Source: Gammaproteobacteria bacterium
GTDB taxonomy: Bacteria; Pseudomonadota; Gammaproteobacteria; GCA-001735895
Length of the DNA: 26,689 bases
NCBI GenBank assembly: GCA_050298595.1
Contig: JBNKUM010000053.1
Coordinates: 1 to 26,689 of the forward strand
Direction of reading: 5' to 3'
Below are positions 520 through 790 of the stretch, one piece after another; the first letter of the stretch is position 1; every line of letters begins with the position of its first letter. A program made the translations under genes and the position numbers. The notes beneath the pieces were generated by a model. It saw only the letters and a program-made list of their open reading frames with translations, did not search any database and had not been told where the DNA came from.

Positions 520-730
520 ACGACAGTTGCAAAAGACAGAAATCGGATGGTGAGATAGGTCAGACCGGTTCATTCAAAACCTGTTCCCTGCATTGGCTAG
601 TAAAGGCCGGACGGATGATGAGGAGAATGAACGCTGATAACCATCGGGGCCAGGAAGACAAAAGCTTCCAAAAACAAGCCGGATATATGAGAGCAATGAT
701 TTTCTCTCACATCAGTGAATTTTGTCTTGC
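520..730 (+). ncRNA. Putative bridge RNA / seekRNA of the IS1111-like element
   Basis: Stem GTTCATTC (568-575)/GAATGAAC (625-632) closes a large internal loop with an inner hairpin (595-608). The loop contains CTGCAT (588-593), the reverse complement of the IS right flank ATGCAG (751-756). A second structured segment contains GGAAG/CTTCC and GCCGGATATATG, and ATATATG also occurs at the IS end. Boundaries are approximate. Confidence 0.6.
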
Positions 731-750
731 AAGCCGGAGTGGGTCCATAT

Positions 751-790
751 ATGCAGAAGGTAGGGCGAAGCAGGAGGCTAAAGCCAAGGA
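751..790. repeat. Partial REP-like interspersed repeat abutting the IS right end
   Basis: ATGCAGAAGGTAGGGCGAAGCAGGAGGCTAAAGCC shares ATGCAG...GCAGGAG with the element at 880-925 and interrupts intron-like sequence. Confidence 0.45.

What the first reader, a model, noticed from the sequence alone, without database searches (positions are those of the whole stretch)
520..790. IS1111-type bridge/seekRNA whose guide loop appears to match the repeat it is inserted in
Seen: the non-coding region after the IS110-family transposase folds into an 8-bp stem (568-575/625-632) around an internal loop. The 5' side of the loop has CCTGCATT (587-594). CTGCAT is the reverse complement of ATGCAG right at the IS end (751-756), and all 8 nt complement AATGCAGG in the second repeat copy (897-904). 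The 3' side has GGACGGATG (609-617), resembling the GGATGG in the left half of that repeat. GATATATG in the second domain echoes the IS terminus ATATATG. Known: IS110/IS1111 recombinases use an RNA from the non-coding end with two short target-matching segments, and some target REP or attC hairpins. Inferred: this is an RNA-guided recombinase programmed against an interspersed palindromic repeat family. The matches are short, so chance is not excluded.
Basis: partly seen in the sequence, partly recalled or inferred. Interest (0 to 1): 0.8.

Follow-up and report, generated by a model that had tools for sequence, protein, structure and literature searches.

The report
IS1111 bridge RNA aimed at REP-like repeat
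The stretch is the guide-RNA gene of an ordinary IS1111-type jumping gene, and its two short guide segments match the palindromic repeat in which the element sits, as already known for this family.

Summary
The window starts inside an IS110-family DEDD transposase gene of the IS1111 type. It has a 14-bp subterminal inverted repeat, a long 3' non-coding region and a GL-P----TG motif.

The 3' region (about 558-711) folds into two stem/internal-loop domains. A covariance model finds the RNA in 79 of 84 sources.

The loop segments covary with the DNA beside each copy:
- The 5' loop side (586-593) is complementary to core AT plus the right flank.
- The 3' loop side (609-616) has the sense of the left flank plus core.
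- The second loop matches the element's own ends in the same way.

All four relations beat every shuffle. A near-identical metagenome copy carries G590A and sits next to GTAGG instead of GCAGG.

The target is the hairpin loop of an extragenic REP-like repeat (at least 88 units), here embedded in a group II intron fragment.

Corrections: the site used is the junction at 751-752, not 897-904. The two flanks do not form one intact site. RNA expression is not shown.

This is a new member of a known kind and of modest interest.

The parts
1..462 (+). 3' part of the transposase gene (residues 186-338 of a 338-aa protein, plus stop). The 5' part lies on contig C108.
   Evidence: PF02371 E 4.7e-20. 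NCBIfam NF033542 'IS110 family RNA-guided transposase' 153.6 bits, cut-off 140. The N-terminal part on C108 matches PF01548 and NF033542 at 217.5 bits. 141-nt identical overlap C108/C53. Reading frame across the join.
190..219 (+). GLVPGQHSTG, the GL-P----(S/T)G motif of IS1111-type transposases
   Evidence: Translation. The motif is described in PMC11187229 section 6.
558..711 (+). Bridge/seekRNA core: a target-binding domain (about 563-636) and a donor-binding domain (about 633-711)
   Evidence: Covariance model R1 scores 166.5 bits here. The same RNA lies 3' of the transposase gene in 79 of 84 sources and in 17 of 41 related genomes. No Rfam family matches it.
568..575 (+). 5' arm of the closing stem of the target-binding loop; pairs with 625-632
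   Evidence: Helix 2: 7 of 8 pairs have changes on both sides, 95.7% of cells paired.
625..632 (+). 3' arm of the closing stem
586..593 (+). Right-target guide (CCCTGCAT), complementary to the top strand of core AT plus GCAGGG. The whole 5' loop strand is 583-594.
   Evidence: Hypervariable block. Covaries with the right flank: 5.55 of 9 against 3.43 shuffled, 0 of 20000; 7.56 of 10 against 4.58, 0 of 5000 in 39 pairs. A natural G590A variant sits next to GTAGG.
595..608 (+). Inner hairpin of the target loop (GGCT 595-598 pairs with GGCC 605-608)
   Evidence: Helix 4; one pair has compensatory changes, 100% of cells paired.
609..616 (+). Left-target guide (GGACGGAT), same sense as the left flank plus core, so it pairs with the bottom strand. 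The whole 3' loop strand is 609-620.
   Evidence: 7 of 8 identical to the left junction GGATGGAT. Across homologues 5.95 of 8 against 3.17 shuffled, 0 of 5000, in 38 pairs. In an independent set, 5-7 of 8 in 6 loci against 2.9 for cross-pairings.
640..644 (+). Donor guide, 5' side of the second loop (ACCAT), complementary to ATGGT in the left end AATGGTATGG
   Evidence: Covaries with the left end: ACCAT/ATGGT, TCCAT/ATGGA, TTCAT/ATGAA. 5.12 of 7 against 4.41 shuffled, 0 of 5000, in 16 distinct pairs.
648..680 (+). Stem GGCC 648-651 with AGCC 677-680, and hairpin GGAAG 653-657 with CTTCC 665-669, inside the donor domain
   Evidence: Helices 6 and 7. Helix 7 has 5 of 5 pairs with compensatory changes.
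681..689 (+). Donor guide, 3' side of the second loop (GGATATATG), same sense as the right end ...CCATATAT(G)
   Evidence: Covaries with the right-end tail: ATATATG, ATACATT, ATATACG, ATAGATG, ATACGTT. 6.69 of 8 against 5.36 shuffled, 0 of 5000, in 16 distinct pairs.
727..732 (+). TTGCAA, the proposed -35 of a promoter that is completed only when the ends are joined in a circle (-10 TATAAT = 750-752 plus the first 3 nt of the left end)
   Evidence: In the modelled junction the window gives TTGCAA-17-TATAAT (10 of 12). Of 47 homologues, 24 score at least 10 and 35 score at least 9. This is inferred, not observed.
736..749 (+). Right subterminal inverted repeat GGAGTGGGTCCATA
   Evidence: Perfect 14-nt reverse complement of TATGGACCCACTCC next to the left end on C108.
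751..752 (.). Core AT at the right junction. The element ends at 750 (or 752 if this copy of the core is counted).
   Evidence: Similarity to the unoccupied paralogue on C75 starts at 751. AT also stands before the left end. The intact repeat units in other genomes fit an AT core.
753..789 (+). Right part of the interrupted REP-like unit (GCAGAAGGTAGGGCGAAGCAGGAGGCTAAAGCCAAGG)
   Evidence: Family members found. Census: 88 nhmmer hits on 42 contigs, 3 of 88 inside long open frames against 825 of 1000 random windows.
751..1056 (-). 5' fragment of a group II intron (domain I), carrying REP-like inserts. It is the context of the target.
   Evidence: RF02001 is weak here (23.1 bits, E 0.073). It is clear in the paralogues: C75 78.7 bits, C74 71.3, C9 42.5. 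The target unit is a roughly 50-nt insert between model positions 112 and 113.
886..935 (+). It is a different REP-like unit, inserted between intron model positions 26 and 27. It is not the site used.
   Evidence: Alignment to RF02001. Conserved in the C9 and C75 copies.

Best explanation
Window 1-752 is the right two thirds of a roughly 1.4-kb IS1111-type insertion sequence. The rest lies on contig C108.

The 3' non-coding region encodes a two-domain bridge RNA, also called a long seekRNA.

Domain 1 is the target-binding loop. It is an internal loop closed by the stems 568-575/625-632 and 580-582/621-623. [quoted passage not shown] Domain 2 is the donor-binding loop. It reads the element's own joined ends in the same way: 640-644 against the left end and 681-689 against the right end.

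The DEDD/serine-type recombinase, loaded with this RNA, would bring together the excised circle and a target of the form A-N-G-G-AT-G-C-A-G-G. It would then exchange strands at the AT core.

That target is the loop plus 3' arm of the first hairpin of an abundant extragenic REP-like repeat.

In this lineage the left guide is nearly constant and reads the conserved hairpin loop. The right guide varies and follows the variable stem.

What is shown: the anatomy, the structural covariation, and the covariation between guides and flanks and between guides and ends.

What is inferred: that the RNA is made (probably from a promoter completed at the circle junction), that it binds the protein, and that this copy is still active.
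For: Protein:
- PF01548 plus PF02371.
- NF033542 'IS110 family RNA-guided transposase' above its cut-off for both halves.
- GL-P----TG motif.

Element:
- 14-bp perfect subterminal inverted repeat.
- 288 nt of non-coding DNA downstream against about 90 nt upstream.
- An unoccupied paralogous site on C75, whose similarity starts exactly at 751.

RNA:
- Of 36 consensus pairs, 14 have compensatory changes. 97.0% of cells are paired against 29.8-55.9% when slid. 0 of 500 shuffles reach the covariation score.
- Model R1 finds the RNA in 79 of 84 sources. The 3 rows printed outside the '+' column (window, L002 stored reversed, L080 second hit) aside, hits lie on the transposase strand just 3' of the gene. 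This includes homologues at 45-55% protein identity.
- It is present in 17 of 41 related genomes.

Guides:
- Right guide against right flank: 39 distinct pairs, 7.56 of 10 against 4.58 shuffled, 0 of 5000.
- Left guide against left flank plus core: 38 pairs, 5.95 of 8 against 3.17, 0 of 5000.
- Donor 3' side against right end: 16 pairs, 6.69 of 8 against 5.36, 0 of 5000.
- Donor 5' side against left end: 16 pairs, 5.12 of 7 against 4.41, 0 of 5000.
- These four come, where 47 of 80 hits were kept and 33 dropped for lack of a recognisable inverted repeat or because of contig ends.
- An earlier, narrower test agrees.
- Loci not used to build the model agree for the left guide (5-7 of 8 in 6 of 6). 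They agree partly for the right guide: the longest exact runs are 8, 7, 7, 5, 5, 4 and 3 in 7 loci.
- A metagenome contig differs from the window at 15 positions over 1-753, three of them in the right guide (584, 586, 590). It is followed by TAGG... instead of CAG....

Literature:
- IS1111 seekRNAs map to the 3' non-coding region, with the top-strand match 5' of the bottom-strand match. ISEc11 gives RNAs of 82 and 154 nt (PMC11187229, sections 8 and 9 read).
- Bridge RNAs have target and donor loops that each include the core. They were predicted in the right end of 93.0% of IS1111 elements (PMC11208160, passages).
Against: - No expression data. The only RNA-library contigs that touch the stretch cover 184-266 and 787-1042, not the RNA.
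- No sigma-70-like promoter was found in 440-1100.
- The single-sequence fold is not unusually stable (z -1.06).
- This copy's right guide matches its own right flank for only 6 consecutive bases including the core (ATGCAG), then diverges.
- The left flank has 4 extra bases compared with the C75 empty site.
- The two flanks belong to group II intron fragments of opposite orientation. The site has therefore been rearranged, or the join of the two contigs is wrong.
- Some copies elsewhere sit at sites that fit their guide poorly: L017 scores 2 of 9, L006 3 of 9 and L040 1 of 9 in the register used.
- The shuffles ignore relatedness among copies.
- The exact position of the core is uncertain by about 1 nt in distant homologues.
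Confidence: 0.88

Rival explanations
1. The element and its RNA gene are real, but this copy is an immobile relic. Its flanks were reshuffled by recombination among repeats or intron copies, so the guide no longer reports how it arrived here.
For: - The left and right flanks are intron fragments in opposite orientation.
- There are 4 extra bases at the left junction.
- The right flank matches the guide for only 6 bases.
- The genome holds one full copy plus decayed fragments on C9, C97, C56 and C12.
Against: - The 338-codon frame is open.
- The subterminal repeats match 14 of 14.
- The RNA scores as well as its relatives (166.5 bits).
- Both junctions still carry the AT core and guide-like flanks.
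Confidence: 0.3
2. The conserved 3' structure is a regulatory RNA or mRNA element, for example one that controls transposase translation or stability, as the Asr9 and Ssr9 RNAs of ISPpu9 do. On this view the matches to the flanks are by-products.
For: ISPpu9 carries accessory small RNAs, and Ssr9 is not needed for its transposition (PMC12288879, abstract and passages). No binding or expression data exist for this element.
Against: A purely regulatory RNA gives no reason for two loop strands to track the two flanks, on opposite strands. Nor does it explain why two further strands track the element's own ends, or why a near-identical copy changes the guide together with its flank.
Confidence: 0.04
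3. The short matches arise by chance, or because the target is palindromic (CTGCAT / ATGCAG), so any such hexamer in the non-coding region would appear to match.
For: The matches in this one copy are short (6-8 nt). The target hairpin is self-complementary. The motif GGATGCAGG occurs 50 times in the genome against about 29 expected.
Against: Covariation holds across 38-39 distinct guide/flank pairs with many different flank sequences, and no shuffle reaches the observed values. The matching segments sit at fixed places in a structure supported by compensatory changes.
Confidence: 0.01

Closest known systems
IS1111-family seekRNA elements ISEc11, ISKpn4, ISPst6 and ISPa11 (Siddiquee et al. 2024, PMC11187229)
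   Same: - DEDD transposase of 330-350 aa with a GL-P----S/TG motif.
- Subterminal inverted repeats.
- Long non-coding region 3' of the gene.
- RNA with a top-strand match 5' of a bottom-strand match, the two overlapping at the insertion point.
- Short (about 82 nt) and long (154 nt) RNA forms, comparable to domain 1 alone and to the 154-nt core modelled here.
- ISPa11 also targets a REP.
   Different: The sequence, the guides and the target repeat family are different. Here nothing is shown experimentally. I could not compare the sequences directly because none of these elements was fetched. The nearest plasmid-borne relatives share only about 67% identity over 27% of the query.
IS621 bridge RNA (Durrant et al. 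2024, PMC11208160; Hiraizumi et al. 2024, PMC11208158)
   Same: Two internal loops, each with one guide for the bottom-left strand and one for the top-right strand. Both guides include a 2-nt core. One loop reads the target and the other the joined ends. IS621 also lands in REP elements (this last point is recalled, not read here).
   Different: - IS621 belongs to the IS110 group. Its RNA lies in the left end, 5' of the gene, and the order of guides is reversed.
- Its core is CT. Here it is AT.
- I saw no clear counterpart of the IS621 handshake guides.
ISPpu9 / ISPpu10 of Pseudomonas putida (PMC12288879; Tobes and Pareja 2006, PMC1525189, seen in a search listing only)
   Same: IS110-family elements inserted at a fixed position of REP sequences, often in REP clusters, with a dinucleotide shared by the element and the target at both junctions.
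   Different: The shared dinucleotide is AG there and AT here. ISPpu9 has extra small RNAs and modular circles. Here I found no RNA copy without a transposase gene, only 2 hits in the genome.

Membership tests
IS1111 group of the IS110 family | DEDD (RuvC-like) N-terminal domain plus C-terminal PF02371 domain | tested here: met
   PF01548 E 7.8e-18 on the C108 part. PF02371 E 4.7e-20 on the window part. NF033542 above cut-off for both parts.
IS1111 group of the IS110 family | Subterminal inverted repeats of 7-17 bp with short terminal extensions | tested here: met
   14-bp perfect repeat. It lies 5 nt inside the left end and 1 nt inside the right end under the AT-core model.
IS1111 group of the IS110 family | The longer non-coding region lies downstream of the transposase gene | tested here: met
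   288 nt downstream (463-750) against about 90 nt upstream.
IS1111 group of the IS110 family | GL-P----S(T)G motif in the C-terminal domain | tested here: met
   GLVPGQHSTG encoded at 190-219. The motif is as described in PMC11187229 section 6.
IS1111 group of the IS110 family | Site-specific, oriented insertion with a shared core and no longer target duplication | tested here: met
   AT stands at both junctions. The empty site on C75 reads left half, AT, right half. The same pattern holds in other genomes. The left flank here has 4 extra bases, which remain unexplained.
Bridge RNA / seekRNA | Conserved structured RNA with an internal loop whose two strands match opposite strands of the target halves and overlap at the core | tested here: met
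   Structure. Covariation between guides and flanks. Natural variant.
Bridge RNA / seekRNA | A second loop that matches the element's joined ends (the donor) | tested here: met
   Both loop strands covary with the right and left ends. The register of the 5' strand relative to the core remains unclear.
Bridge RNA / seekRNA | The RNA is transcribed, binds the transposase and is required for transposition | not testable with these tools
   No RNA cover of 558-711 in the runs laid. No promoter by the scan. A junction promoter is only modelled.
Rfam families | Match to a curated RNA family | tested here: not met
   No match in 463-750 at E up to 1. No match above gathering score anywhere in the window.
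REP / REPIN elements mobilised by RAYT transposases (for the target repeat) | Short extragenic palindromic repeats in many copies, often clustered | tested here: met
   88 hits on 42 contigs in 62 clusters: 41 single, 16 double, 5 triple. 3 of 88 lie inside long open frames against 825 of 1000 random windows.
REP / REPIN elements mobilised by RAYT transposases (for the target repeat) | A Y1 (RAYT) transposase gene flanked by the repeats | tested here: not met
   The genome has 26 PF01797 matches. Of the 18 best, only 1 has a repeat unit within 1.2 kb. I therefore call the repeat 'REP-like' only.

The most novel reading that the evidence does not exclude
The element and the REP-like repeat form a coupled system. 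The left guide is fixed on the conserved hairpin loop (A-N-GGAT), while the right guide drifts to follow the variable stem. A single lineage can therefore hop between sub-families of one repeat by single-base guide changes, as in the G590A variant.

Because the repeat units are scattered in both orientations, including inside group II introns, the RNA-guided recombinase might also drive inversions or deletions between repeat units. The oppositely oriented intron fragments on the two sides of this copy would be the scar of such an event.

A unit of the same repeat sits inside the guide loop of one homologue's RNA gene (L028). This hints that the repeat units themselves move, or are moved, by the same machinery.
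Probability: 0.12. Interest if true: 0.55.

Novelty: new member of a known kind. Interest (0 to 1): 0.3.

Why it matters
Bridge RNA and seekRNA recombinases are of current interest as programmable DNA-insertion tools, so natural examples with clear guide/target pairs are useful reference data.

This family offers about 40 distinct natural guide/flank pairs. It also includes a near-identical pair of copies that differ in the guide and in the flank together, which amounts to a natural reprogramming experiment.

It is a further case of an IS1111 element using REP-like hairpins as landing sites, here nested in a group II intron.

It does not change what is known. NCBI's own family model already names the protein 'RNA-guided transposase'. 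Published surveys predict such RNAs in 93.0% of IS1111 elements (PMC11208160).

Tried and rejected
Boundary model with an ATG core and a left end starting GATAATGG. I held it after because it fits the C75 empty site. I then rejected it for three reasons. Intact repeat units in five other genomes read stem-NGGAT-stem, which fits junctions with an AT core. The left guides of distant homologues end exactly at the dinucleotide before AATG. Only the AT model gives TTGCAA-16/17-TATAAT at the joined ends. The cost is 4 unexplained extra bases in this copy's left flank.

Handshake guides as in IS621. I looked by eye next to the right guide and saw no match to the right-end tail. Not pursued.

Rfam. 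No family covers the RNA.

Promoter scan. None found in 440-1100.

Single-sequence folding. Not informative.

Expression. One search for runs and one laying of contigs from 2 DNA and 2 RNA runs. The RNA-library contigs gave no cover of 267-786. Being contigs of relatives, they say nothing either way.

RAYT link for the repeat. Not found.

Plasmid collection. Only distant partial hits, about 67% over 27% of the query. The phage and E. coli collections were not searched.

ISfinder could not be consulted, so I cannot say whether this element already has a name. The supplementary tables of PMC11208160 and PMC11187229, which list predicted RNAs and targets per IS, were closed and may already hold close relatives.

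Literature on IS110 elements inside REP units inside group II introns. One search with the terms IS110, 'group II intron' and 'repetitive extragenic palindromic' found 2 papers, seen as a listing only, neither clearly on this. I make no claim that it is unpublished.

Alignment A1 had one row with wrong coordinates. It was discarded and replaced by A2.

The table kept only 15 rows because of an over-strict filter of mine. One search replaced it.

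Full report
WHAT IS THERE

The window begins inside a gene whose product matches PF02371. It also matches NCBIfam NF033542, 'IS110 family RNA-guided transposase'.

The window is the start of contig C53. 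Its first 141 bases are identical to the reversed start of contig C108. Read across that overlap, the frame gives a 338-residue protein. Its N-terminal part matches PF01548, the DEDD domain.

The join of the two contigs is an inference. It rests on the overlap, on the open frame, and on the similar summed depth of the element (67-77) and of the unique flank (58) in the best DNA run.

The protein carries GLVPGQHSTG, encoded at 190-219. This is the GL-P----S/TG motif that the seekRNA paper gives for IS1111 transposases (PMC11187229, section 6 read).

ENDS OF THE ELEMENT

A perfect 14-bp inverted repeat lies at window 736-749 and next to the left end on C108.

Similarity to an unoccupied paralogous site on contig C75 starts exactly at window 751. 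That empty site reads ...GACGACTGCATGG-AT-GCAGGAGGTAG...

In the occupied copy the left flank ends ...CTGCATGGATGG-AT and is followed by AATGGTATGGACCC... The right end reads ...GGGTCCATAT-AT-GCAGAAGG....

I first read the shared letters as ATG. I settled on an AT core for three reasons:
- Intact units of the same repeat in other genomes read stem-NGGAT-stem.
- The left guides of distant homologues end exactly at the dinucleotide before AATG.
- Only this model gives TTGCAA-17-TATAAT when the ends are joined. Of 47 homologues, 24 score at least 10 of 12 and 35 score at least 9.

Under this model the element is about 1.4 kb. It has about 90 nt before the gene and 288 nt after it.

THE RNA

I collected 80 loci that encode relatives of the C-terminal half. 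They are mostly gammaproteobacterial metagenome bins and Shewanella, plus some Terriglobia, Dyella and others at 45-55% identity.

The region after the stop codon aligns well from about window 520 to the right end. The exceptions are two short blocks that differ from copy to copy.

RNAalifold on 32 sequences gives two domains.

Domain 1:
- An invariant CCU/AGG (580-582/621-623).
- A 12+12-nt internal loop.
- A small hairpin (595-598/605-608).

Domain 2:
- A GGCC stem (648-651/677-680).
- A hairpin (653-657/665-669).
- Loop strands on both sides.
- A further hairpin (688-691/706-709).

Counting pairs:
- 97.0% of cells are paired, against 29.8-55.9% with partners slid by 1-3 columns.
- 14 of 36 pairs have changes on both sides.
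- No shuffle (0 of 500) reaches the covariation score.

The fold of the single sequence is not unusually stable (z -1.06), so the case is comparative.

A covariance model of 155 positions finds the RNA in 79 of 84 sources, just 3' of the gene. The five sources without a hit are two that hold only other parts of the element, two cut by contig ends, and L077.

The model finds two copies in this genome, the window and a decayed one on C9. It finds hits in 17 of 41 related genomes, including 9 of 13 of the same genus.

Rfam has no family for this RNA.

GUIDES

The two variable blocks are the two strands of the domain-1 loop.

Right guide. The reverse complement of the 5' strand reads AT followed by the bases right of the element. 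In the window this is AT-GCAGGG against the flank AT-GCAGAA, and against AT-GCAGGA in the C75 empty site and most family members. Across the closer homologues there are 31 distinct pairs from 33 rows. The mean agreement over the 9 positions after the first core base is 5.55, against 3.43 when flanks are shuffled. No shuffle (0 of 20000) does as well.

Left guide. The 3' strand has the same sense as the left flank plus core. In the window this is GGACGGAT against GGATGGAT, 7 of 8. In this lineage the left flank is nearly always A-N-GGAT, so the test has little power. The result is 4.04 of 6 against 3.29 shuffled, 0 of 20000.

The distant homologues settle the left guide, because there the left flanks differ widely and the 3' strand follows them.

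In the extended set I kept 47 of 80 hits. The other 33 were dropped because no subterminal repeat could be recognised or because the contig ended. All four relations hold:

| relation | distinct pairs | observed | shuffled | shuffles as good |
|---|---|---|---|---|
| right guide vs right flank | 39 | 7.56 of 10 | 4.58 | 0 of 5000 |
| left guide vs left flank plus core | 38 | 5.95 of 8 | 3.17 | 0 of 5000 |
| domain-2 3' strand vs right-end tail | 16 | 6.69 of 8 | 5.36 | 0 of 5000 |
| domain-2 5' strand vs left end | 16 | 5.12 of 7 | 4.41 | 0 of 5000 |

The shuffles ignore relatedness, so these counts are not probabilities. However, the agreement is base for base and on the strand expected.

Loci from related genomes that were not used to build the model agree for the left guide: 5-7 of 8 in 6 of 6 loci, against 2.9 for cross-pairings. 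They agree partly for the right guide. The longest exact runs are 8, 7, 7, 5, 5, 4 and 3 in 7 loci, against a cross mean of 3.98.

The neatest single piece of evidence is a 1280-nt DNA contig of a metagenome run. It differs from window 1-753 at 15 positions. Three of them lie in the right guide (584, 586, 590), and it continues after 753 with TAGG... instead of CAG.... G590A in the guide therefore goes with C-to-T in the flank.

Not every copy fits. L017, L006 and L040 score 2, 3 and 1 of 9 in the register used. L009 has an altered right end.

COMPARISON WITH PUBLISHED WORK

The seekRNA paper reports that IS1111 RNAs map to the 3' non-coding region. They contain a top-strand match 5' of a bottom-strand match, and the two overlap in the target. 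For ISEc11 the RNAs come as 82-nt and 154-nt forms. No promoter was seen other than the one made by joining the ends (PMC11187229, sections 8 and 9 read).

The bridge-RNA paper defines left guides that pair with the bottom-left strand and right guides that pair with the top-right strand, with the core included in both. It predicts such RNAs in the right end of 93.0% of IS1111 elements (PMC11208160, passages).

What I find here is the same arrangement.

I saw no clear counterpart of the IS621 handshake guides (PMC11208158, passages).

THE TARGET AND ITS SETTING

The interrupted sequence is one unit of a repeat of about 50 nt. The unit reads: GAC, a stem, NGGA(T), the complementary stem, (G/T)GGTAGRGC, then a second small hairpin around GCAGGA, then CCGAG.

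A profile search finds 88 units on 42 contigs, partly in arrays of two or three. Only 3 of 88 lie inside long open frames, against 825 of 1000 random windows.

The stems vary but stay complementary. The same repeat occurs in the genomes of several homologues.

I found no link to Y1 (RAYT) transposase genes: 1 of 18 has a unit within 1.2 kb. I therefore call the repeat REP-like.

The predicted 9-nt target GGATGCAGG occurs 50 times in the genome, against about 29 expected from composition. Nine of these lie in the repeat. The guide alone therefore does not confine the element to the repeat.

The unit hit here is itself embedded in a group II intron. The Rfam model RF02001 scores only 23.1 bits on the window's minus strand. 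It scores 78.7 bits on the C75 paralogue, 71.3 on C74 and 42.5 on C9.

In the alignment to the model, the target unit is a roughly 50-nt insert between model positions 112 and 113.

To the left of the element, C108 carries a different intron fragment (model positions 60-145) on the opposite strand, followed by repeat units. The two flanks are therefore not the two halves of one intron. Together with the 4 extra bases, this points to a later rearrangement, or less likely to a wrong contig join.

HOW IT MOST LIKELY WORKS

Shown:
- a protein of the RNA-guided IS110/IS1111 kind;
- a conserved two-loop RNA gene;
- loop strands that track the target halves and the element's ends.

Inferred:
- The element excises as a circle.
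- The joined ends create a strong promoter that reads through the transposase gene into the RNA region.
- The RNA is trimmed and bound by the protein.
- Domain 2 holds the joined ends and domain 1 holds a repeat hairpin.
- Strands are exchanged at AT.

VERDICT

It is a well-supported but ordinary member of a class described in 2024. The extras are a nested setting and a useful set of natural guide/target pairs.

Interest 0.3. Novelty: new member of a known kind.

Noticed in passing
window 751-1056 (minus strand); paralogues G000:C75:90200-92200, C74:12708-12954, C9:4411-4644: A group II intron family (RF02001 and RF01998; RF00029 at 45.6 bits on C74 but only 24.3 bits, below cut-off, on C75), with 8 RF02001 hits in the genome. 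Several copies carry REP-like units as inserts in domain I, and the window holds only a 5' fragment.
   Followed up: partly
G000:C108:786-968 (left of the element, off-window): The left flank is a different intron fragment (model positions 60-145) on the opposite strand to the one on the right. The left junction has 4 extra bases (ATGG) compared with the C75 empty site. This suggests an inversion or recombination after insertion.
   Followed up: partly
L028:3048-3251: In one homologue a complete unit (47 nt) of the same REP-like repeat is inserted inside the right-guide loop of its own bridge RNA gene, in reverse orientation. The repeat units therefore seem able to reach new sites.
   Followed up: no
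whole genome G000 (e.g. C56:50294-50391, C49:208-303, C8:238743-238930): An abundant extragenic repeat family of about 47-50 nt units with variable but complementary stems and conserved loops. It is often in tandem arrays and is shared with other gammaproteobacterial genomes. No RAYT link was found.
   Followed up: partly
left junctions of L010/L011/L012 and of L035/L038/L041: Copies with the same left guide have either the guide-matching base or T at the fourth base before the core (...CAAGGAT against ...CATGGAT). This is natural variation of the hairpin loop that the guide tolerates.
   Followed up: no
window 787-1042: Contigs from two oligo-dT sediment RNA libraries (85-95% alike) cover this intron fragment. 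Copies in several runs replace 860-927 with 17-31 other letters, which makes it a variable insert site matching the REP-like insert.
   Followed up: no
window 524-557: A strongly conserved block (CAGTTGC.AAAGAC ... GATG.TGAGA) lies just upstream of the modelled RNA. It could be part of the RNA, a processing signal or a weak promoter. The promoter scan found nothing.
   Followed up: no
G000:C85:165160-166165: A second, distant IS110-family gene (about 40% identity) is split over two frames. The RNA model does not match next to it.
   Followed up: no
window 1115-2020 (minus strand): A 301-aa SAM-dependent methyltransferase (PF13847, E 3.1e-38) with a cysteine-rich N-terminal region lies directly beside the intron fragment.
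   Followed up: no
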